The notes: a model not told the origin generated them from the letters alone. 14,457 bases of DNA from a virus (IMGVR_UViG_2537562191_000039:1-14457), one strand, 5' to 3'. Positions 1 to 10,834 are shown, counted from the stretch's first letter. Numbers and translations are program-made.

Positions 1-170
1 TGGCCACACTAACGTGGGTGGACTGGTATAACAATCGACGATTGCTGGGAAGGCTGGGCCATACTCCTCCGGCAGAAGCAGAAAAAGCTTATTATGCTTC
101 CATCGGAAACGATGATCTGGCAGCCTGAGTTCACAGATAAAACACTCTCCAGGAAACCCGGGGCGGTTCA
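1..170 (+). mobile_element. Right end of an insertion sequence (transposase 3' end plus terminal repeat); outer boundary approximate
   Basis: Transposase stop at 126-128 is followed by about 40 nt before methyltransferase-coding sequence resumes in another frame. The end is placed provisionally at the CA dinucleotide at 169-170. The left end and any target-site duplication lie outside the window, so the boundary is unverified. Confidence 0.45.
3..128 (+). CDS. DDE transposase/integrase (rve-type, IS3-family-like), C-terminal fragment; 5' end is off-window
   Basis: Frame 3 is open from nt 3 to TGA at 126-128 and translates to ATLTWVDWYNNRRLLGRLGHTPPAEAEKAYYASIGNDDLAA*. The W..WYN..R....G..TP.E.E pattern matches the conserved C-terminal end of rve-type transposase catalytic domains. 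Not in the ORF track because the start is outside the window. Confidence 0.6.
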   Translation, partial: ATLTWVDWYNNRRLLGRLGHTPPAEAEKAYYASIGNDDLAA

Positions 171-181
171 AATCCCCTGAC

Positions 182-3100
182 GTGCTCGTCGGGGGAACAC
201 CATGTTTTACCGCGGGGCATATGGTTCTTTGTAAAAATGGCTATAAACCAATAGAAAATGTTTGCCCTGGTGATTACGTAGTCAGTCATCTCGGGCGGTT
301 ACAACAAGTAAAAAGAGTTGGTTCAAAAATAGCTAATACGGGGTTACTTAATGCCGTTGGGCAGCCTTTAGGTATAAGAACAACCAATGACCATCCCTTC
401 CTGGCTGTTCGGTGGAAAGCCCAAAACACCCGGAAAAATGGCACATATTTTAAGAGAGAGTTGTTGTCTGAACCGGAATGGCGAGCAGCATGTGATATGC
501 CGGGATATCAATGGTGCGCTCTAACTAATTTCAATATTGCATTTCCAGATATTTGTTCTCGGTTCTTGTCTGAAGAACAGGCTATGTATCTTGCGGGCGC
601 TTATGTTGGCGATGGATATATTAGGAGATGGAGAGGTAAATCTAAGAAGGCGGTTGTTTTTGGCATAAATTGCCAGAAATTGAGAAAGTTTCATTGCCGC
701 ATACCAGAAAACATATTTTCCGTGGCAAGCGAAATCCGAGGGAGCATCAAAGTAACCTTGAATGATACGTGTTATGCCAATTGGCTTAATGAACATTTTG
801 GCGAGTTAAGCCATGCTAAGCGTATCCCTGCATGGGTGATGTCGCATCCATTGCGTCATGTGTTTTTACAAGGCTATCTTGATACTGATGGGACACCAAG
901 TGGTAAAGCGGGATTTAGAATTAATAGTGTTAGTTCTGCGCTTGCTTGGGGCGTTGCGGGGTTGTCACAGACTTGTGGTTATGTTTCTTCGGTCAGCTTT
1001 ATTGAAGTTGAGCCCAAAAAAGTGATCGAGGATCGCGTGGTAAATCAACGGAATTATTATCAGGTAACAATCTGCCCGCAGAAATTGTCACGTAAATCAA
1101 GATTGGCTCATGGAATGCTTTTACGAACAGTCAAAGAGTTTAAATCGGTAGGCCTAGATACTGTATACAACATAGAAGTCGAAGGTGATCATTCCTATAT
1201 CCTCAATGGTGCGGTGGTCCATAACTGTCAGGCATTCAGTATCGCGGGATTACGTGGTGGGCTTGATGATGAGCGTGGCGCGCTAACTTTAAAGTATGTG
1301 GAGCTTGCAAATGCAATTGACGACAAACGGGCTGAGTCATTTCTCAAACCAGCCGTTATCGTCTGGGAAAATGTCCCAGGAGTCTTGTCATCGGCAGATA
1401 ACGCCTTCGGATGTTTCCTTGCCGGATTGGCTGGAGAAGATGCGCCATTTGAACCAGGTGATCGACCTGAATCAGGAAAAAGTAACACGTTCTGGCGGTG
1501 GGATGGCAAAACCGGTTGCCATGCTCCAAAGTGGCCGCAGTGTGGTTGTATTTATGGACCGCAGCGAAAAGTGGCCTGGAGAATCCTTGATGCCCAATAC
1601 TTCGGAGTGGCACAACGACGCCGACGCGTGTTTGTTGTCGCAAGTGCTCGAACAGACCTCGATCCCGCAACGGTACTTTTTGAGTTCGAAGGCGTGCGCC
1701 GGAATATTGCGCCGAGCCGAAAAAAGAAGGAAATCGCTTCCGCCATTATTGCAAATGGCGCTGCAATCAGTGGCGAAAGCCTAAATCCATGCCTACACGC
1801 TGACATGCCACCCGGTATGAAATCGACGAAAGCCGTAAACGCTTTCAGGATGGCAGCATTTGGGGAATATATTGACGATGAAACCGCATCGACAGTAAAG
1901 GCAAGAGATTTTAAAGATGCCACTGACCTTGCCGTTTTTAGCAGCACAGGAGCAGGTTTTTGGTCAGAAGGGCATGGTACATTGCGGGCACGTGAGCAAG
2001 AAAGCCATGAGCATCTTGTTACATTGGCTTTTCCTGAGCGTATGAGCGGTACACAACATGCTGCAACTAAGAATACTTCACCATCTCTAATGGCTAAAAA
2101 TCCAACAGCTGTTTGCTATGAAGTAAGAAACGCAGAAGTAGCTGTCCGCCGTCTTACCCCTGTCGAATGTGAAAGGCTGCAAGGTTTTCCTGAGGGGCAT
2201 ACGTTGATCCCGACGGAAAAGCGTAAAAAAGTTTCTTCAGATGAACTGGCATACCTTCGCAATCACTATCCAGATTTAAGCGAAGAAGAGGCCGCGATGC
2301 TTGCAGCTGACGGACCGCGTTACAAAGCGATCGGCAACAGCATGGCAGTTCCTGTTATGCAATGGATAGGGTGTCGCATTCTTGCGACCGTAGCGGATAA
2401 ACAGCAAAAAACAATAAATACCATTACCTACACAAGAAAACTCCGGACTCCGGATGAATATGAACGCCCAATATTCAAATGGGTAGGCGGTAAATTCTCA
2501 GAGTTGCCTACAGTGCTTGAGCATCTACCACACGGCAAGCGGTTAATAGAACCATTCGTTGGTGGCGGTTCCGTATTTACGAATGCAGGATTTCGCCACA
2601 ACCTGCTTAATGATATTAACGGTGACCTGATTAACTTCTATCAGACATTGCAGCGAGAGGGACATTCGCTCGTCACGCTGGCATATAGTTTTTTCAAAAA
2701 TTACAACAACGCTGACGCTTACCTCGAAGTGCGTGAGGCATTTAACAGAGGAAAGTATGACCAACTACATCATGCTGCTGCCTTTTTGTACCTTAATCGG
2801 CACTGTTTTAATGGCGTAACGCGGTACAACCAAAATGGCGAGTTCAACGTAGGGTATGGCAAATACAAAGCGCCCTACTTCCCACATGCAGAGATGGAGG
2901 CATTTTTGGCTGATGACGTACTCAAAAACACTTCCTTTGTATCAGGTGACTTTGCTAGCGTCATTGAGGCGGCTGGTGAAGACGATGTGATTTTTTGTGA
3001 TCCGCCGTATGAACCGCTTCCGGATACAGAGGGATTTACCAGCTATTCAGGAAATAGCTTCCGTTTCGACGAACAGAAACGGCTTGTATCACTGTTGGTG

Positions 3101-3274
3101 GATGCCCACCAGCGCGGCGCTAAGGTAGTGATAACAAATAGTGGTGCTCCAAACATCCGTGAACTATATGAAGGAAACGGGTTTAAAGTACATCATATGG
3201 CAGCCAGACGGTCGGTTTCCTGCAAGGCGTCAACACGTGTAGTTGCTAACGATATAATTGCAATAATGAAGTAA
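182..3274 (+). CDS. Fused DNA methyltransferase: C5-cytosine MTase domain (motifs IV-X only, intein-interrupted) plus Dam-like N6-adenine MTase domain; 5'-truncated by the IS
   Basis: ORF-track protein of 1030 aa. C5-MTase motifs appear in canonical order: motif IV split by the intein (SPDVLVGGTP|CQAFSIAGLRGG), motif VI VIVWENVPGV (ENV at nt 1367-1375), motif VIII YFGVAQRRRRVFVVA, motif IX RRLTPVECERLQGFPEGH, motif X AIGNSMAVPV. The last ~290 aa carry Dam-family motifs: KWVGGK, EPFVGGGSV (nt 2555-2572), FLYLNR, EFNVGYGKYK, FCDPPY (nt 2999-3010). No motifs I-III are present. Reading upstream in frame hits TGA at 113-115 inside the IS end, so the GTG at 182 (no Shine-Dalgarno) is probably not the ancestral start. 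Confidence 0.85.
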   Translation: MLVGGTPCFTAGHMVLCKNGYKPIENVCPGDYVVSHLGRLQQVKRVGSKIANTGLLNAVGQPLGIRTTNDHPFLAVRWKAQNTRKNGTYFKRELLSEPEWRAACDMPGYQWCALTNFNIAFPDICSRFLSEEQAMYLAGAYVGDGYIRRWRGKSKKAVVFGINCQKLRKFHCRIPENIFSVASEIRGSIKVTLNDTCYANWLNEHFGELSHAKRIPAWVMSHPLRHVFLQGYLDTDGTPSGKAGFRINSVSSALAWGVAGLSQTCGYVSSVSFIEVEPKKVIEDRVVNQRNYYQVTICPQKLSRKSRLAHGMLLRTVKEFKSVGLDTVYNIEVEGDHSYILNGAVVHNCQAFSIAGLRGGLDDERGALTLKYVELANAIDDKRAESFLKPAVIVWENVPGVLSSADNAFGCFLAGLAGEDAPFEPGDRPESGKSNTFWRWDGKTGCHAPKWPQCGCIYGPQRKVAWRILDAQYFGVAQRRRRVFVVASARTDLDPATVLFEFEGVRRNIAPSRKKKEIASAIIANGAAISGESLNPCLHADMPPGMKSTKAVNAFRMAAFGEYIDDETASTVKARDFKDATDLAVFSSTGAGFWSEGHGTLRAREQESHEHLVTLAFPERMSGTQHAATKNTSPSLMAKNPTAVCYEVRNAEVAVRRLTPVECERLQGFPEGHTLIPTEKRKKVSSDELAYLRNHYPDLSEEEAAMLAADGPRYKAIGNSMAVPVMQWIGCRILATVADKQQKTINTITYTRKLRTPDEYERPIFKWVGGKFSELPTVLEHLPHGKRLIEPFVGGGSVFTNAGFRHNLLNDINGDLINFYQTLQREGHSLVTLAYSFFKNYNNADAYLEVREAFNRGKYDQLHHAAAFLYLNRHCFNGVTRYNQNGEFNVGYGKYKAPYFPHAEMEAFLADDVLKNTSFVSGDFASVIEAAGEDDVIFCDPPYEPLPDTEGFTSYSGNSFRFDEQKRLVSLLVDAHQRGAKVVITNSGAPNIRELYEGNGFKVHHMAARRSVSCKASTRVVANDIIAIMK
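203..1225 (+). other. Intein (Hint splicing domain with LAGLIDADG homing-endonuclease insert), 341 aa, inserted at the catalytic Cys of the C5-MTase PCQ motif
   Basis: Begins with Cys (TGT 203-205) directly after GGTP, with an N-terminal block CFTAGHMVLCKNGYKPIENVCPGDYVV. Block B is TNDHPF. Two LAGLIDADG-type motifs, LAGAYVGDGY (nt 590-616) and FLQGYLDTDG (nt ~866-892), each retain the Asp. Block F is VYNIEVEGDHSY. Ends ILNGAVVHN (AAC 1223-1225) followed by +1 Cys (TGT 1226-1228). Removing it joins GGTP to CQAFSIAG, restoring GG.PCQ.FS.AG. Confidence 0.8.
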
Positions 3275-3322: not shown

Positions 3323-4984
3323 TTAACCTAACTTCGCCCAGGTATCACGCAGCCCAACGGTGCGGTTAAATACCGGTTTTTCCGCCGTAGAATGGCGGCT
3401 GTCGAGGCAGAAATAACCTTCACGCTCAAACTGGAATGCTTTACCCGCTACCGCTTCTTTCAGCGACGGTTCAGCAAAGCCCTGTTTGATCACCAGCGAT
3501 TCCGGGTTAATCACCGACAGGAAATCATCCGCAGCACCTGGGTTCGGCACGTTGAACAGACGATCGTACAGGCGGATTTCAACCGGCAGCGCATGTGCCG
3601 CGCTCACCCAGTGAATAACGCCTTTCACTTTACGACCATCTGCCGGATCTTTGCTTAAGGTGTCGGCGTCATAAGTACAGAAGATGGTGGTGATATTGCC
3701 TTCGGCATCTTTCTCCACGCGTTCAGCCTTAATGACGTAAGCATTACGCAGACGCACTTCTTTACCCAGCACCAGACGTTTGTACTGCTTGTTAGCTTCT
3801 TCGCGGAAATCGGCGCGGTCGATCCAAATCTCACCGCTAAACGGCACCTGACGGCTACCCATTTCCGGTTTGTTTGGATGGTTCGGCATGGTGACCATTT
3901 CGCCTTCGCCCTGGTAGTTTTCGATAACCAGTTTCACCGGATCGATAACCGCCATTGCGCGCGGGGCATTTTCGTTGAGATCTTCACGGATGCAGGATTC
4001 CAGCGACGCCATCTCAATGGTGTTGTCCTGCTTGGTCACGCCGATGCGTTTGCAGAACTCACGAATAGAAGCCGCAGTGTAACCACGACGACGCAGACCG
4101 GAAATGGTCGGCATACGCGGGTCATCCCAGCCTTCAACGTGCTTGTCGGTCACCAGCAGGTTCAGCTTACGCTTGGACATCACGGTGTATTCCAGATTCA
4201 GGCGCGAGAATTCGTACTGGCGCGGATGAACAGGAATGGTGATGTTGTCCAGTACCCAGTCATACAGACGACGGTTGTCCTGGAACTCAAGCGTACACAG
4301 AGAGTGCGTAATACCTTCCAGCGCATCGCTGATGCAGTGGGTGAAGTCGTACATCGGGTAGATGCACCACTTGTTGCCAGTCTGGTGGTGTTCAGCAAAC
4401 TTAATACGGTACAGCACCGGGTCGCGCATCACGATAAACGGCGAAGCCATGTCGATTTTCGCACGCAGGCAGGCTTTACCTTCTTCAAAACCACCGGCAC
4501 GCATTTTTTCGAACAGCGCCAGGTTCTCTTCAACGCTGCGGTCGCGGTACGGGCTGTTTTTACCCGGCTGCGTCAGGGTGCCGCGGTATTCGCGGATCTG
4601 TTCCGGCGTCAGTTCGTCAACATACGCCAGGCCTTTGTTGATCAGTTCAACAGCATAGGCATGGAGTTTGTCAAAATAATCGGAGGAGTAACGGATGTTG
4701 CCAGACCAGTGAAAACCTAACCATTCAACGTCGTTTTTAATCGACTCAACGTACTCGATATCTTCTTTTACTGGGTTAGTGTCGTCGAAACGCAGGTTGC
4801 ACTGGCCTTTATAGTCCTGGGCGATCCCGAAGTTCAGGCAGATAGATTTCGCATGACCAATATGCAGATAGCCATTCGGTTCCGGCGGGAAACGGGTATG
4901 TACTGTGGTGTGCTTACCACTGGCCAGATCTTCATCGATGATCTGACGAATAAAGTTAGTCGGGCGGGCTTCTGCCTCACTCAT
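3323..4984 (-). CDS. glnS: Glutamine--tRNA ligase (glutaminyl-tRNA synthetase)
   Basis: 553-aa product begins [48 protein letters not shown], with the class I HIGH motif and a VMSKR (KMSKS-type) motif. Full length and near-identical to E. coli GlnRS as I recall it. The flanks are not the chromosomal nagE/chiP neighbours. Confidence 0.97.
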
Positions 4985-6813: not shown

Positions 6814-7770
6814 TTAACCGATTGCTTTCAGGCCATGAACAAGAGCAAGTTGCGGGTCATCCGCCACGAAGAAACGGTCATCACGAATATTAACTTGCTC
6901 GCGAATTGCATCTGCCACCAGCGGTGCGCCACCACCGATCACCATGACATGCGTATATCCTTTAAAGTCGCCAATCACATCAAGAACTCGGGTACGCAGA
7001 CGGTCAATGCTTGCGGCAATGGCCTTTTTCACATCACCAATCGCTGATGGGTCATTGATATTGTCGTTCAGATAATCTTCATCGTGGCGGTTAATAATGA
7101 GCTGATCAACATTGTAATTTGACGTTTCGGTATTGGCCCTTGCAAGTGCTTGCCTTACTTCCCTGGTGACCAGTGATACACCAAGATTCGAATCGCCAAA
7201 AACACGGGAAACTGCCGTCATTTGCCCAGCGACCATTGAAACATCAAGGGTAGTTCCACCCAAATCGACGATAAGAACAGAATGGACAGGGTTCAGATTG
7301 TCGCACAGGCCAATTCCTGCCGGAATAGACTCCGGTCGTACCGTAACTTTCTTAATCGTGAACACATTGCCTTTATTCAGCGTGACGGGGCGCATAAGGC
7401 TGGCTTTCTTGCGCTCGATGTTATCGAGATTGTATTGCGCGTCGTCGTCGTAAAACTCCGCCAGAGGCAGCGTGACCACAATTTCTACTTCCTGCGGCTC
7501 AATACCGCTTGTCAGCAGGGCATGGTGAACAGCCAGGACGTTAAGCGGGCTGTATTGCCATTCCACGTTATTCGTCGGCAGAACATCTGGCGAGATCAAA
7601 TCATACGAATACTTCTCGTCGTCAATGACATAGTTAAACGGCTTGCCAGCACCAAATGTTGCTGACCATCCGCGCTTAAAGCTGTTAGGACTGATGTGAG
7701 TGCGAGTTTCCCCGTCGTGCTCCCACAGCATTTTGATATTGGTTGAACCATCATCGATAAAAATGCGCAT
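6814..7770 (-). CDS. parM: ParM/StbA actin-like plasmid segregation ATPase
   Basis: MRIFIDDGSTNIK (phosphate 1), LIVDLGGTTLDVS (phosphate 2) and HVMVIGGGA (adenosine) motifs; colinear with R1 ParM as recalled over the whole length. Start placed at the internal ATG 7770, which has GGAG 7 nt upstream; the ORF-track start at 7794 is a GTG eight codons further up. Confidence 0.9.
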   Translation of the reverse strand: MRIFIDDGSTNIKMLWEHDGETRTHISPNSFKRGWSATFGAGKPFNYVIDDEKYSYDLISPDVLPTNNVEWQYSPLNVLAVHHALLTSGIEPQEVEIVVTLPLAEFYDDDAQYNLDNIERKKASLMRPVTLNKGNVFTIKKVTVRPESIPAGIGLCDNLNPVHSVLIVDLGGTTLDVSMVAGQMTAVSRVFGDSNLGVSLVTREVRQALARANTETSNYNVDQLIINRHDEDYLNDNINDPSAIGDVKKAIAASIDRLRTRVLDVIGDFKGYTHVMVIGGGAPLVADAIREQVNIRDDRFFVADDPQLALVHGLKAIG

Positions 7771-7796
7771 CTTCTTGCTCCACTTCTGAGACACAT

Positions 7797-7951
7797 TTGA
7801 GAATCAAAATGTAATTTTAAAAGAGAAGCACCCAAAAATCCACACCAAACGAGACAAAAAAGAGCGCTTGTTGAGTTTATTTTGAGAATATCTTAATCAC
7901 CCACTGAATGATGGCCTGATAGTGAGATTTATTTGAGAATGAATTGAGAAT
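7797..7951. repeat. Iteron cluster (parC-like centromere/operator) in the parM upstream region
   Basis: Exact TTGAGAAT copies at 7797-7804, 7882-7889, 7933-7940 and 7944-7951, plus degenerate copies TTGAGTTT (7871-7878) and GTGAGATT (7922-7929). All lie between the divergent parM and PAAR genes. Confidence 0.55.
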
Positions 7952-8036
7952 ACAAAAATATTCCGAAATTTAACTCTCCGTTTGAATGACGAAATAACAA
8001 AGTGATGACAATAGGAGGATAACCAGGAGGTGAAGA

Positions 8037-8321
8037 ATGAGCGCAATAGCCACCAGCGACACCCTTTGTTCTGGTCACGGAGGATTTCCGCCGCGACTGG
8101 TAGCTGAAACCGTTCCCTGGTTCACCGTTAACGGTAAGCCAGTTGTTGTAGATGGTGCCATGTTTCCCAGTCACACTGACGGTAACAGTGCACACCCAGG
8201 GGCAGCTGTATCGACGCGAGTATGGTTTTCGATAGGTGGAAAGGGAGTTGTCTGTGTAGGCGATCCGCTTTCTTGTGGTTCTGTTATCGCCAACGGCGAG
8301 GATATTTTTCAGGTTGCATAA
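8037..8321 (+). CDS. PAAR-domain protein (spike-tip type, as in phage gp5.4 or T6SS PAAR)
   Basis: 94 aa with three PAAR-like segments and conserved metal ligands: DTLCSGHGGFPP, VNGKPVVVDGAM...HTDGNSAHPG, IGGKGVVCVGDPLSCGSVIANG. Strong RBS AGGAGG at 8025-8030, 6 nt before ATG 8037. Confidence 0.7.
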   Translation: MSAIATSDTLCSGHGGFPPRLVAETVPWFTVNGKPVVVDGAMFPSHTDGNSAHPGAAVSTRVWFSIGGKGVVCVGDPLSCGSVIANGEDIFQVA

Positions 8322-9124
8322 TGCTTGATTCAATAGGTGAAGTTAAAGCCTTCAAAATTCTGTCAGATGCCGGTATCTCTACACCAGAATCTATAACCAT
8401 AAGCCGGGCAGCTTCTGTAAAAGCCTCATCACTCGCCAGCGCCATACAGGGAATAGTTCACGCCGATAAAACCTATCCTGATTCTGTTTCGGCCTGGACT
8501 ACTCAATTGCTTGGCTTTTCTGAACAGCTCAATGAGGCCAGCAAAGCGTCTTCATTACTGGCTGATTCTCTTTCCCCATACACCAAGCCATCAGAGCTGT
8601 TACAGATGAAGATTGGCTGGGAATGCTACGCAAAAGGTAACGAGCTGACCCCCATACCTGCTTTCGCCCTTGTTGAGGGAATGGGGAATGTTTCCATTCC
8701 GCAATCTCTAACGGACGCATTGACGGCGCTAAAACTTGATGCTCTGAAAACCGCCATGAACGCCATTAACGCAAAAATTGAAGCTGCCGGAAGTGCTGGT
8801 GGTGATAGCAATGGTGGGCAGGGTGGTACTGGGGGCGCTCAGGCTCCAGTCATTACTCAGGATGAAATTGATGCTTTACGGGAAGCAGTGACAGCCGCCG
8901 AAGTTTTACTCTCCGAAATTAACTCAGCAAGTGAGAGTGTCGTAGCCCTTGCAGGTCGCATTAAAACGTCAACCACTCAGGCAACCAAAGGTTTAGAGAA
9001 CGCTGTCGCCATCACGTTAACTGGTTCTCTACTGGATGATGCAGTAATGAGTCCGGCAATCAGTTTAATCATACCACAAGGCGTTATCGACGCGCTCCAA
9101 ACGAACACCAAAAAGGAACCATAG
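8321..9124 (+). CDS. Hypothetical protein, Ala/Ser/Leu-rich with a central Gly-rich linker; function unknown
   Basis: ATG at 8321 overlaps the PAAR stop (TAATG). 267 aa from MLDSIGEVKAF. Internal low-complexity linker AGSAGGDSNGGQGGTGGAQAP. No transmembrane segment or catalytic motif recognised. The ORF-track N-terminal extension from 8222 overlaps the PAAR gene and is rejected. Confidence 0.55.
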   Translation: MLDSIGEVKAFKILSDAGISTPESITISRAASVKASSLASAIQGIVHADKTYPDSVSAWTTQLLGFSEQLNEASKASSLLADSLSPYTKPSELLQMKIGWECYAKGNELTPIPAFALVEGMGNVSIPQSLTDALTALKLDALKTAMNAINAKIEAAGSAGGDSNGGQGGTGGAQAPVITQDEIDALREAVTAAEVLLSEINSASESVVALAGRIKTSTTQATKGLENAVAITLTGSLLDDAVMSPAISLIIPQGVIDALQTNTKKEP

Positions 9125-9163: not shown

Positions 9164-9655
9164 ATGTTTAACACCAAAAAAATGAACCTGAAGAGGATGG
9201 TTTTGAAAAAGATAATTTTGATTGTAATTGCGCTTTTAGCCATTTCTGGAATTTACCGAACAACGACGGCAGTTATCGAACACATCAGGTATGTCCGATC
9301 GCTTGAAGACTCAAAATCACAACTGGAAAGCACGAACAACACGCTTTCTACCGCATTACAGTTAAGTGAGAACGCTCGCTCAGCCATGCTGACCGAAAAC
9401 GAAAGAATTAAAGCACTGGAAAAGGAGTACCAGCGCAAAACAGCAGAACTGAATGCCAACCTAATCAAACAACGAGAGGAAAGCCAGAATGAAATCACTC
9501 GCCTTGAAAATGCGTTACGCCGTGCTGGGATTAACGATGTGCGTGTGCCTGATGACGTTATCAGGATGCAGCGGGAACGGGCAAAAGCCATCAACCAGCG
9601 TGCCAGTGAAAATTACCGTAGAAGCCACCAGCAAGCCGCAGGCAAATCTGATTGA
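9164..9655 (+). CDS. Putative i-spanin (Rz-like inner-membrane spanin subunit)
   Basis: 163 aa. N-terminal basic region then a hydrophobic segment IILIVIALLAISGIY (type II membrane anchor), followed by a charged, heptad-rich periplasmic region. The o-spanin gene is embedded in its 3' part in another frame. Confidence 0.6.
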   Translation: MFNTKKMNLKRMVLKKIILIVIALLAISGIYRTTTAVIEHIRYVRSLEDSKSQLESTNNTLSTALQLSENARSAMLTENERIKALEKEYQRKTAELNANLIKQREESQNEITRLENALRRAGINDVRVPDDVIRMQRERAKAINQRASENYRRSHQQAAGKSD

Positions 9656-9821
9656 TTACTCCCCTTGTTTAGTGCCAGAGGACACGCCAGTGCTGTTAAA
9701 CAAGTATCCGACATACGCTGAACAGTTATTCAGCACGATCGACGAATGCAACCAACGAAACGCACTGAATAACCAAAGAAACAGGGAGATTTGGGAAGGG
9801 AAGGGGGATCAAGGCTCCTGA
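9489..9821 (+). CDS. Putative o-spanin (Rz1-like outer-membrane lipoprotein)
   Basis: Signal peptide with lipobox (MKSLALKMRYAVLGLTMCVCLMTLSG|C) and a Pro/Cys-containing mature region. Starts inside the i-spanin gene in a different frame and extends 166 nt past its stop. GAGGA lies 8 nt upstream of ATG 9489; ATG 9510 is an alternative start. Confidence 0.6.
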   Translation: MKSLALKMRYAVLGLTMCVCLMTLSGCSGNGQKPSTSVPVKITVEATSKPQANLIDYSPCLVPEDTPVLLNKYPTYAEQLFSTIDECNQRNALNNQRNREIWEGKGDQGS

Positions 9822-10267
9822 AGCCAGATGTCCTGGCTGTCAGCTTCTTCGAAACCGTGACAGACGTTAAAGTCACTCAAGCGATACTGACGCTGACGGC
9901 CTCTATTTCGCTCATGCCAATGCATGTATCCACCAGCAAATGCCAGCGGACAATCACTATAGTCTATGTAACCAATACCATTCCCCAAACGTGCTTCGCG
10001 CGCACCGGCTTTCCAGGACAGTAGAAAAGAGTCACGATCCGCCAGCATAACAACAAAATCGTCCGGATCTCCGATACAGTGAAGAATACCTGCCTTACAT
10101 AACTGCTTGAGCGCTTTTGACTGGCTCAGGATGTCTTCTCCGTAATACTGAAAACAATCATCAACAACAGCGGGATAGCCTGCCGGGGGATTCAGGCTGG
10201 TTGGTATAGCTGACGCGATCGCCAGCATTAAGCGATATTGTGTTTTTGATGGGTTAACGTGACTCAT
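9809..10267 (-). CDS. Hypothetical protein (152 aa), second gene of a two-gene minus-strand operon
   Basis: ORF-track 152 aa beginning MSHVNPSKTQYRLMLAIASAIP. AAGGGA sits 5 nt upstream of the ATG. No recognisable domain. Its 3' end overlaps the convergent o-spanin gene by 13 nt. Confidence 0.55.
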   Translation of the reverse strand: MSHVNPSKTQYRLMLAIASAIPTSLNPPAGYPAVVDDCFQYYGEDILSQSKALKQLCKAGILHCIGDPDDFVVMLADRDSFLLSWKAGAREARLGNGIGYIDYSDCPLAFAGGYMHWHERNRGRQRQYRLSDFNVCHGFEEADSQDIWLQEP

Positions 10268-10283: not shown

Positions 10284-10676
10284 TCATTGTCGCCATGCAT
10301 TTTTTAACTCAGGAATATCTGCCATTTCAATTAACTTGCGAAGTCCAGCACTGACTTTCCCATTGCCAACCATAGCAAGCCAATCTCTTACAGCTTTCGG
10401 CATGTAGAGCGTTGCAGTTACCGGCTCTTCAACCCTGGCAGGACATCCGCATACAGGCCATTTAATTGATTCCATAACTTCGGATGCCGGGGTGAGGGCG
10501 GGGACATTGAGTATATCTCTACCAGAAAACTGGATAACGATCCGTTCAGCGAGCGAGAGTATCTCACTTTCGGCAAGAATTGATGCCAACTGCGCCTCAA
10601 CAAGAAAGCGACTTGTTGTGTTCAGAGAGTGGCTCTTAGCGCCATTTTTATACGAAACAAAGATTCGATACGCCAT
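10284..10676 (-). CDS. Hypothetical protein (130 aa) with C-terminal ribbon-helix-helix-like DNA-binding region
   Basis: C-terminus TATLYMPKAVRDWLAMVGNGKVSAGLRKLIEMA fits a strand-helix-loop-helix RHH pattern (Arc/MetJ-like). The N-terminal ~80 aa are unrecognised. First gene of the operon, 16 nt upstream of the 152-aa gene. Confidence 0.55.
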   Translation of the reverse strand: MAYRIFVSYKNGAKSHSLNTTSRFLVEAQLASILAESEILSLAERIVIQFSGRDILNVPALTPASEVMESIKWPVCGCPARVEEPVTATLYMPKAVRDWLAMVGNGKVSAGLRKLIEMADIPELKNAWRQ

Positions 10677-10834
10677 AACTCTAATGATTTGTGTTAGAAA
10701 ACTAAAATTAAATCACATAACAACATGCGTGTTAATAGATTTTATTTTACTAAACCTATTGACTAAATCACAAAGTAGGTATTGTTAGCCCGTCAAAAGA
10801 ACCTTCACGCCGCGCCCGAATTTAGGGCTTAACC

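What the first reader, a model, noticed from the sequence alone, without database searches (positions are those of the whole stretch)
8037..9124. Isolated PAAR spike-tip gene translationally coupled to an unknown 267-aa protein, with no baseplate hub gene nearby
PAAR proteins cap phage gp5-type or T6SS VgrG spikes and often carry or escort cargo. This PAAR gene is not next to any spike or hub gene; it is divergent from parM and overlaps (TAATG) a gene for a helical, Ala/Ser-rich protein with a Gly-rich linker and no recognisable domain. The pair could be a spike-tip plus cargo or adaptor module, or a misplaced baseplate component.
Basis: partly seen in the sequence, partly recalled or inferred. 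Interest (0 to 1): 0.5.

Follow-up and report, generated by a model that had tools for sequence, protein, structure and literature searches.

The report
Phage spike tip and its partner protein
These two overlapping genes are the D6-type copies of phage P1 genes upfC and upfB, which encode the sharp cap of the tail's piercing spike and a helical protein that sits on that cap, so the pair is real but already described.

Summary
ORF 8037-8321 (94 aa) is a PAAR protein, and it overlaps by one base (TAATG) a 267-aa, all-helical, Ala/Ser-rich ORF (8321-9124) that has a Gly-rich linker and no Pfam domain.

The window comes from a D6-like, P1-related phage-plasmid of E. coli. It is 98% identical to phage D6 and 100% identical to plasmid pE2863-2. 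The two genes are orthologues of P1 upfC (56% identity; solved chain 9vyi_A, E 1.4e-35) and upfB (27% identity; hhalign 99.8%).

A 2026 cryo-EM study of P1 places UpfC as the monomeric cap on the gp5 spike. It assigns UpfB to a "tripod" anchored on that cap. Both genes are dispensable for plaque formation in P1.

The PAAR gene is not orphaned. In the sibling plasmid the gp6 hub and gp5 spike genes lie 8 kb upstream, an arrangement like that of P1.

In all 41 related loci the PAAR gene sits directly upstream of the upfB homologue, and 38 keep the stop/start overlap. A spanin pair usually follows. A conserved late-promoter-like motif precedes the operon.

Nothing supports a toxin cargo. Verdict: already known, low interest. 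What the tripod does remains open.

The parts
7992..8012 (+). Predicted D6-type late promoter: box AAATAACAAA (7992-8001), 5-nt spacer, then the -10-like hexamer GACAAT (8007-8012)
   Evidence: The same architecture (AAATCACAnA, 5 nt, NAnnnT) lies 36-148 nt upstream of the tail operon, capsid, portal, tail-fibre-region, holin and other genes in the sibling plasmid. Of 20 motif hits, 12 are intergenic in a genome that is 86.5% coding. The box is conserved upstream of PAAR in diverged loci. This is inferred, with no transcript data.
8025..8031 (+). Shine-Dalgarno sequence AGGAGGT, 5 nt before the PAAR start codon
   Evidence: Read directly from the sequence.
8037..8321 (+). PAAR spike-tip protein, 94 aa, orthologue of P1 UpfC / D6 orf57
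   Evidence: Pfam PF05488 at 27.2 bits (cut-off 27). PHROG 281 at E 8e-29. PDB 9vyi_A UpfC at E 1.4e-35 and T4 gp5.4 at E 1.4e-5, with H14, H46, H53 and C80 aligned. 56% identical to P1 UpfC. dN/dS 0.04-0.05.
8321..9124 (+). 267-aa all-helical protein, orthologue of P1 UpfB ('tripod') / D6 orf56; its start overlaps the PAAR stop (TAATG)
   Evidence: PHROG 1559 at E 1.6e-109, the same family as P1 UpfB. hhalign against P1 UpfB gives 99.8% probability, E 2e-30, over 257 columns. The AF2 model has pLDDT 81. The gene is always directly downstream of PAAR, in 41/41 loci, and 38/41 keep the TRATG overlap. dN/dS 0.16-0.21.
9164..9655 (+). i-spanin (Rz-like), 163 aa, next gene on the same strand
   Evidence: PHROG 214 Rz-like spanin at E 2e-16. 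N-terminal hydrophobic helix followed by a coiled-coil sequence. Same position as P1 ppfA, which matches PHROG 89 Rz-like spanin at E 5e-25. Found after the upfB homologue in 38/41 loci by tblastn.
9489..9821 (+). o-spanin (Rz1-like lipoprotein) overlapping the i-spanin gene in another frame; the exact start is uncertain
   Evidence: Lipobox LSGC in MKSLALKMRYAVLGLTMCVCLMTLSGC. PHROG 456 and 30284 Rz-like spanin families, the latter being the family of P1 Mlp.

Best explanation
The two genes encode the distal end of the tail's cell-puncturing device in a D6-like (P1-related) myovirus that is maintained as a plasmid.

The 94-aa PAAR protein is the UpfC orthologue. It folds into a small metal-stabilised cone, and a single copy caps the blunt end of the trimeric gp5 beta-helical spike. 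That spike and the gp6 hub are encoded about 8 kb away.

The 267-aa helical protein is the UpfB orthologue. It docks onto the PAAR cone and forms a three-legged helical extension (the 'tripod') beyond the tip.

The pair is transcribed late, from a D6-type late promoter, in one operon with the spanin lysis genes. The second gene is translated by coupling to the first through the TAATG overlap.

When the sheath contracts, the tip complex is the first part of the virion driven into the outer membrane. It is an accessory that helps penetration rather than an essential part.

Shown here: homology, gene order, the overlap, purifying selection and the helical fold. Taken from the P1 literature: the location of both proteins on the virion and their dispensability. 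Inferred: late transcription, translational coupling, and any role of the tripod in membrane penetration.
For: The window is 98.3-98.4% identical to phage D6 and 100% identical to plasmid pE2863-2 from base 1226 onward. D6 annotates the two genes as similar to P1 upfC and upfB.

The PAAR protein matches the cryo-EM-built P1 UpfC chain 9vyi_A over its full length (E 1.4e-35) and matches T4 gp5.4, with three His and one Cys conserved.

The 267-aa protein is homologous to P1 UpfB end to end, including the position of the linker (hhalign 99.8%; PHROG 1559 for both).

The P1 cryo-EM paper (PMC12810830) describes monomeric UpfC on trimeric gp5, and UpfB as a tripod anchored on the tip.

The cognate spike and hub exist in the sibling plasmid: Gp5 9vzk_q at E 6.5e-56 and Gp6 9vzk_1 at E 7.6e-72.

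The gene pair is adjacent in 41/41 loci, down to 28% UpfB identity, and 38/41 keep the one-base stop/start overlap.

The family is small (74 representatives among 1.84 billion proteins), of constant length (about 245-265 aa), and sits on contigs of phage-plasmid size.

A late-promoter-like motif is shared with capsid, portal, tail, holin and other late genes.
Against: In P1, UpfB was not built into the map. An AlphaFold3 model was fitted into medium-resolution density. The two papers that discuss it give different copy numbers, three trimers versus three copies.

UpfB does not appear in the main text or the virion LC-MS/MS table of the P1 proteome study.

The D6-type protein is only 27% identical to P1 UpfB, and no D6 virion data exist.

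Deletion or knock-down of upfB and upfC leaves P1 plaque formation unchanged, so no functional role has been demonstrated.

The promoter is a sequence inference, and the motif was partly derived from the sites it is used to explain.

I could not model the PAAR-UpfB complex with the tools available.
Confidence: 0.8

Rival explanations
1. The 267-aa protein is an assembly chaperone or adaptor. It binds the PAAR protein in the cytoplasm and loads it onto the gp5 spike, much as T6SS adaptors load PAAR effectors. It is not retained in the virion, and the P1 tripod density belongs to something else.
For: Strict adjacency and stop/start overlap with the PAAR gene would fit a dedicated chaperone equally well. 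UpfB is absent from the P1 virion proteome text and table. The P1 assignment rests on fitting a predicted model into the density.
Against: The same proteome study also missed UpfC, gp5 and gp26, which are certainly in the virion, so absence there says little. The predicted UpfB trimer is reported to fit the tip density. At 267 aa the protein is three times the size of its supposed client. It matches none of the known adaptor families in Pfam.
Confidence: 0.1
2. The 267-aa protein is cargo. It rides on the PAAR tip and is released into the host envelope or periplasm, where it acts as an effector or pilot protein, for example by inserting into a membrane to open the way for the tube or the DNA.
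Against: There is no catalytic or toxin domain, no transmembrane segment above threshold and no immunity-like gene. Length and architecture are constant across the family, unlike polymorphic effectors. It is dispensable in P1. The fold matches are non-specific. This reading is compatible with the tripod rather than an alternative to it.
Confidence: 0.07
3. The 267-aa protein belongs functionally with the spanin genes that follow it and acts in lysis.
For: A spanin pair follows the gene in 38/41 loci by tblastn, and in P1 by PHROG match. The genes appear to share one operon and promoter.
Against: The protein has no signal peptide, lipobox or transmembrane helix. The holin gene is elsewhere in the genome. 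The coupling is to the PAAR gene, not to the spanins, from which a 39-nt gap separates it. The P1 deletion shows no plaque defect.
Confidence: 0.03

Closest known systems
Phage P1 UpfC and UpfB (spike tip and 'tripod'; PDB 9vyi / 9vzk; PMC12810830)
   Same: The proteins are orthologous: PAAR is 56% identical and UpfB is 27% identical over its full length, in the same PHROG families 281 and 1559. The gene order upfC-upfB-i-spanin-o-spanin is the same. The location is also the same, beside the plasmid-maintenance genes and 7-9 kb from genes 5 and 6.
   Different: UpfB has diverged strongly. In P1 the two genes are separated by 8 nt rather than overlapping. The neighbouring partition system is ParM/ParR here and ParA/ParB in P1. 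P1 has no annotated late promoter in front of upfC. No structural or genetic data exist for the D6-type pair.
Phage D6 orf57 / orf56 (NC_050154, YP_009914734 / YP_009914733)
   Same: Essentially the same genes: 98% (PAAR) and 97-98% (267-aa protein) protein identity. They are already annotated as similar to P1 upfC and upfB.
   Different: None of substance. The window's element differs from D6 upstream, with a P1/RCS47-type dmt gene that carries an intein and is cut by IS629.
Phage T4 gp5.4 (PAAR tip of the gp5 spike), with the neighbouring small gene 5.1
   Same: A monomeric PAAR cone of the same size, with the same His/Cys positions, capping a gp5 beta-helix. It is also reported as non-essential for plaque formation. 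A small partner protein binding one face of the cone has been proposed for T4 from AlphaFold3 modelling only.
   Different: About 30% identity. In T4 the gene sits next to gene 5, and gp5 carries a lysozyme domain that P1-type gp5 lacks. T4 has no UpfB homologue.
T6SS PAAR proteins with fused or adjacent effectors and adaptors
   Same: The PAAR fold and the principle of using the cone as a docking site for a second protein encoded immediately downstream.
   Different: The score against the NCBIfam T6SS PAAR model is 34 bits against a cut-off of 124. There is no toxin, immunity or adaptor domain and there are no T6SS genes. The context is a phage late operon.

Membership tests
PAAR spike-tip proteins (Pfam PF05488; T4 gp5.4 / P1 UpfC type) | Profile match to the PAAR_motif model above its curated cut-off | tested here: met
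   27.2 bits against a cut-off of 27.0, residues 27-85. This is marginal on its own, but PHROG 281 gives E 8e-29.
PAAR spike-tip proteins (Pfam PF05488; T4 gp5.4 / P1 UpfC type) | Full-length similarity to structurally solved spike tips | tested here: met
   9vyi_A UpfC at E 1.4e-35 over residues 1-93. T4 gp5.4 (5iv5, 4ku0) at E 1.4e-5 and 2.7e-5. 4jiv_D at E 0.017.
PAAR spike-tip proteins (Pfam PF05488; T4 gp5.4 / P1 UpfC type) | Three His and one Cys that hold the metal ion near the apex (their role as ligands is from my own knowledge of the published PAAR structures) | tested here: met
   H14, H46, H53 and C80 align with His/Cys in P1 UpfC and T4 gp5.4. Metal binding itself was not tested.
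PAAR spike-tip proteins (Pfam PF05488; T4 gp5.4 / P1 UpfC type) | A cognate beta-helical spike (gp5/VgrG type) in the same genome | tested here: met
   It is not in the window. In the 100%-identical sibling plasmid pE2863-2, Gp5 (E 6.5e-56 to 9vzk_q) and Gp6 (E 7.6e-72 to 9vzk_1) lie 8 kb upstream. In the window's own element this region is beyond an IS629 insertion and cannot be seen.
PAAR spike-tip proteins (Pfam PF05488; T4 gp5.4 / P1 UpfC type) | Physical position on the tip of the spike in the particle | not testable with these tools
   Known for P1 UpfC from cryo-EM and inferred for this orthologue.
UpfB family (PHROG 1559; P1 'tripod') | End-to-end homology to P1 UpfB | tested here: met
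   hhalign 99.8%, E 2.2e-30, 257 columns. tblastn 27% identity over 97% of the length. Both proteins fall in PHROG 1559.
UpfB family (PHROG 1559; P1 'tripod') | Gene immediately downstream of the PAAR gene | tested here: met
   41/41 loci. 38/41 have the one-base stop/start overlap.
UpfB family (PHROG 1559; P1 'tripod') | All-alpha fold in two parts joined by a flexible Gly/Pro/Ala-rich linker | tested here: met
   AF2 model with pLDDT 81 and pTM 0.74: ten helices, and a linker at 160-172 with pLDDT below 50. The linker is variable in the alignment.
UpfB family (PHROG 1559; P1 'tripod') | Oligomer docked on the PAAR cone in the virion | not testable with these tools
   No multimer prediction was available. 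In P1 this rests on fitting an AlphaFold3 model into medium-resolution density.
T6SS PAAR effector/adaptor modules (considered) | Toxin domain fused to, or encoded next to, the PAAR gene, with an immunity gene or a known adaptor family | tested here: not met
   The 267-aa protein and 20 homologues have no Pfam or NCBIfam domain. The next genes are spanins.
T6SS PAAR effector/adaptor modules (considered) | Match to the T6SS PAAR equivalog model, with T6SS core genes nearby | tested here: not met
   NF033420 scores 34.2 bits against a cut-off of 124. The whole sibling plasmid is a phage-plasmid with no T6SS genes annotated.
Spanin/lysis proteins (considered for the 267-aa protein) | N-terminal membrane anchor or lipobox | tested here: not met
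   The N terminus MLDSIGEVKAFKILSDAG has no hydrophobic stretch. The highest 19-residue Kyte-Doolittle average is 1.53, near the C terminus.

The most novel reading that the evidence does not exclude
The UpfB-family protein may be more than a passive ornament. It could be a detachable, membrane-active tip module that contacts or inserts into the host envelope ahead of the PAAR point and adapts penetration to particular envelopes. Two observations fit this: it evolves about four times faster at non-synonymous sites than its PAAR partner, and it appears dispensable on laboratory E. coli. A weak fold resemblance to DUF7217 proteins of other large myoviruses (BFVD, E 4e-3, TM 0.44-0.59) leaves open a wider, unrecognised class of tip-docked helical proteins.
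Probability: 0.15. Interest if true: 0.5.

Novelty: already known. Interest (0 to 1): 0.15.

Why it matters
It matters little as a discovery. The genes are the D6-lineage copies of P1 upfC and upfB, whose place in the virion was published in 2026 and whose homology was already noted in the D6 annotation.

This analysis adds three things. First, the pairing, the one-base overlap and the operon with the spanins are conserved across the whole small family, which independently supports a physical partnership between the PAAR protein and UpfB. Second, the operon carries the same late-promoter-like motif as the capsid, portal, tail and holin genes. Third, the helical partner has no solved structural relative.

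The open question is what a helical tripod beyond a sharpened spike is for, given that it is dispensable in the laboratory.

Tried and rejected
- A P1-type late promoter pattern (CAACAARTGAC-N7-TANAAT) gave no match in the window, even with 3 mismatches. The generic sigma-70 and terminator scan gave nothing above chance. The short pattern ACAAAGTR was not specific. Only the longer box found by comparing diverged loci was informative, and its total count is only modestly above a Markov-1 expectation (20 against 12.9 ± 3.7). The signal is in the position, orientation and fixed spacing of the sites.
- PDB sequence search with the 267-aa protein gave only linker-driven noise.
- BFVD gave weak DUF7217 hits. 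No family member matches DUF7217 in Pfam, even at E up to 10. A look at eight phage CBA120 proteins for a DUF7217 gene near tail genes found none, so I dropped this lead.
- The afdb50 fold library was not available.
- The D6 genome paper (Gilcrease and Casjens 2018) is not held. I therefore could not check whether D6 late promoters have already been described.
- The window's 130-aa ORF (10284-10676, minus strand) is not a homologue of P1 UpfA.
- Modelling a complex of the two proteins was not possible with the prediction tool. I left the second structure-prediction job unused.

Full report
**What is there**

The window carries two same-strand ORFs exactly as described. One is 8037-8321 (94 aa). 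The other is 8321-9124 (267 aa). The TAA stop of the first shares one base with the ATG of the second. A strong Shine-Dalgarno sequence, AGGAGGT at 8025-8031, precedes the first gene, and nothing comparable precedes the second.

The first protein passes the Pfam PAAR_motif cut-off only narrowly, at 27.2 bits against 27.0. Other evidence is clear. PHROG 281 gives E 8e-29. It aligns over its full length with the cryo-EM-built P1 UpfC chain 9vyi_A (E 1.4e-35) and with T4 gp5.4 (E 1.4e-5). Three His and one Cys are conserved at positions 14, 46, 53 and 80.

The second protein has no Pfam or NCBIfam family. It is Ala/Ser-rich and acidic. AlphaFold2 models it with good confidence (pLDDT 81, pTM 0.74) as ten helices with a disordered Gly-rich linker at residues 160-172.

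**Where it comes from**

The region is 98.3% identical to Escherichia phage D6, a P1-related myovirus kept as a plasmid. From base 1226 onward the window is 100% identical to the 92.9-kb E. coli plasmid pE2863-2. The D6 record already annotates the two genes as similar to P1 upfC and upfB.

I tested that annotation directly:
- The PAAR protein is 56% identical to P1 UpfC.
- The 267-aa protein is 26-27% identical to P1 UpfB and P7 Upf63.6 over 97% of its length.
- A profile of 21 D6-type sequences aligns with P1 UpfB end to end at 99.8% probability (E 2e-30), with the Gly/Ser-rich linker in the same place.
- Both fall in PHROG 1559.

**What is known about the P1 proteins**

- The 2004 P1 annotation already noted the similarity of UpfC to T4 gp5.4.
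- A 2022 study predicted UpfC to be the spike tip. It found that deleting upfC had no effect on plaque formation. It also made a upfB deletion, one of its 29 single-gene knockouts; only five named pmg-gene knockouts failed to give infectious virions. UpfB does not appear in its main text or its virion proteome table.
- CRISPRi knock-down scored both genes as non-essential.
- A 2026 cryo-EM study built UpfC as a single copy capping the trimeric gp5 spike. [quoted passage not shown]
- A second 2026 paper describes the tripod as three copies of UpfB on UpfC and calls its role unclear. The copy number is therefore not settled.

**Is the PAAR gene really isolated?**

Within the window, yes. Within the genome, no. 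In pE2863-2 the gp6 hub (E 7.6e-72 to P1 Gp6, 9vzk_1) and the gp5 spike (E 6.5e-56 to P1 Gp5, 9vzk_q) are encoded 8.0 kb upstream of the PAAR gene. The distance is 7.3 kb in D6 and about 9 kb in P1. In all three the pair sits beside the plasmid-maintenance genes. Separation from the other baseplate genes is thus the normal layout of this phage group. In the window itself the upstream region is cut off by an IS629 end.

**Conservation of the pair**

The UpfB family is small:
- 35 clusters in the 5.8-billion-protein search.
- 74 representatives at 50% identity among 1.84 billion proteins, nearly all 245-265 aa.
- Only two loci in one-genome-per-species bacterial contigs, both on contigs of 84-93 kb.

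In 39 viral contigs plus D6 and P1, the PAAR gene lies directly upstream of the upfB homologue in 41 of 41 cases, down to 28% UpfB identity. The one-base stop/start overlap (TAATG or TGATG) is kept in 38 of 41. The other three have gaps of 0-8 nt.

A spanin gene follows in 38 of 41 loci by tblastn. In P1 the same position is held by ppfA and mlp, which match Rz-like and Rz1-like spanin families. In the window the i-spanin is 9164-9655. An overlapping lipoprotein ORF with lipobox LSGC runs 9489-9821.

Both genes of the pair are under purifying selection. The PAAR protein is much more constrained (dN/dS 0.04-0.05) than its partner (0.16-0.21). Conservation in the partner is concentrated in three places: residues 87-118 (PSELLQMKIGWECYAKGN...), the C-terminal residues 221-260, and the first 20 residues.

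**Expression**

No P1-type late promoter box is present. However, comparing the sequence upstream of the PAAR gene in diverged relatives revealed a conserved box, AAATCACAAA. The same box precedes the capsid gene in the window.

Across the whole sibling plasmid the box (allowing one mismatch) occurs 20 times. Twelve of those are intergenic, although 86.5% of the plasmid is coding. Nine sites share a fixed architecture: the box, 5 nt, then a hexamer NAnnnT. They lie 36-148 nt upstream of, and point towards, the tail operon, the PAAR gene, the capsid, portal, holin and tail-fibre-region genes, and three other genes.

Read on the opposite strand, the P1 late '-22' box AAGTGACTT becomes AAGTCACTT. 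That shares 7 of 9 positions with AAATCACAA, so this is plausibly the D6 counterpart of the P1 late promoter. For the PAAR operon the box is at 7992-8001 and the -10-like hexamer GACAAT is at 8007-8012.

This is an inference. The motif was partly derived from two of the sites, and its raw count is only modestly above expectation (20 against 12.9 ± 3.7). I could not check whether the D6 genome paper already reports it.

**Fold of the partner protein**

**Interpretation**

The best-supported reading is that the pair encodes the PAAR cap of the gp5 spike and a helical protein docked on that cap. They are made late and co-translated, as in P1. I put this at about 0.8 overall: near certainty for the PAAR cap, and roughly 0.7 for virion-bound UpfB.

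The alternatives are an assembly chaperone that is not retained, a released cargo or pilot protein, or a lysis function. These are less likely for the reasons given under the rival explanations. The cargo reading is compatible with the tripod rather than opposed to it. Nothing supports a toxin: there is no domain, no immunity-like neighbour and no polymorphism in length or architecture.

**Verdict**

But the module is already described in P1 and already annotated as homologous in D6. Novelty is 'already known' and interest is low. The remaining open point is the function of the tripod, which is dispensable in the laboratory and evolves faster than its PAAR partner.

Noticed in passing
window 1-170: The left end of the window is 100% identical to the end of insertion sequence IS629/IS1203 (IS3 family), which is present in more than 2600 plasmids. 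It abuts the dmt gene at about base 168, so the 5' part of dmt and everything upstream (hrdC and the gp5/gp6 genes in relatives) is displaced in this element.
   Followed up: partly
window 168-3274 (+): The Dmt methyltransferase ORF (C5 methylase plus Dam-type N6 methylase domains) contains a Hint domain and a LAGLIDADG domain, which is to say an intein. It begins right after the GGTP(C) motif of the C5 methylase. The 168-1225 segment is absent from the P1 dmt gene and from many D6-like plasmids, so the intein is polymorphic. Only about 9 codons of the N-extein remain before the IS629 end.
   Followed up: partly
window 9164-9655 and 9489-9821 (+): An overlapping i-spanin/o-spanin pair (Rz/Rz1-like; lipobox LSGC) directly follows the 267-aa gene. 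It matches the position of P1 ppfA/mlp, which also score as spanin families. Phage D6 annotates these ORFs only as hypothetical proteins.
   Followed up: yes
window 7787-7951: Four copies of an 18-nt repeat (TGAGA...TTTGAGAAT) lie in the 242-nt gap between parM and the PAAR gene. They are probably the parC centromere and operator of the ParM/ParR partition system.
   Followed up: no
pE2863-2 (L046+L045+L047), whole record; window 7992-8012 and 10765-10785: A candidate D6-type late promoter (AAATCACAnA, 5 nt, NAnnnT) lies in front of nine genes or operons, including tail, capsid, portal, holin and tail-fibre-region genes. It resembles the P1 late -22 box read on the opposite strand.
   Followed up: partly
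window 3323-4984 (-): A full-length glutaminyl-tRNA synthetase gene is carried by the phage-plasmid, as annotated in D6.
   Followed up: no
L002 (P1 AF234172) 6983-7828 (-): P1 upfB is annotated as 281 aa, overlapping upfC by 49 nt. Family-wide conservation of the MLD/MLE start indicates a 262-aa protein that begins 8 nt after the upfC stop. Two database entries for the D6-type protein (283 aa) likewise use an upstream start.
   Followed up: partly
window 9809-10267 (-) and 10284-10676 (-): Two convergent ORFs of 152 and 130 aa lie between the spanins and the capsid gene. They match only PHROG families of unknown function (8101, 7830). The 130-aa ORF is not related to P1 UpfA despite its equal length.
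   Followed up: partly
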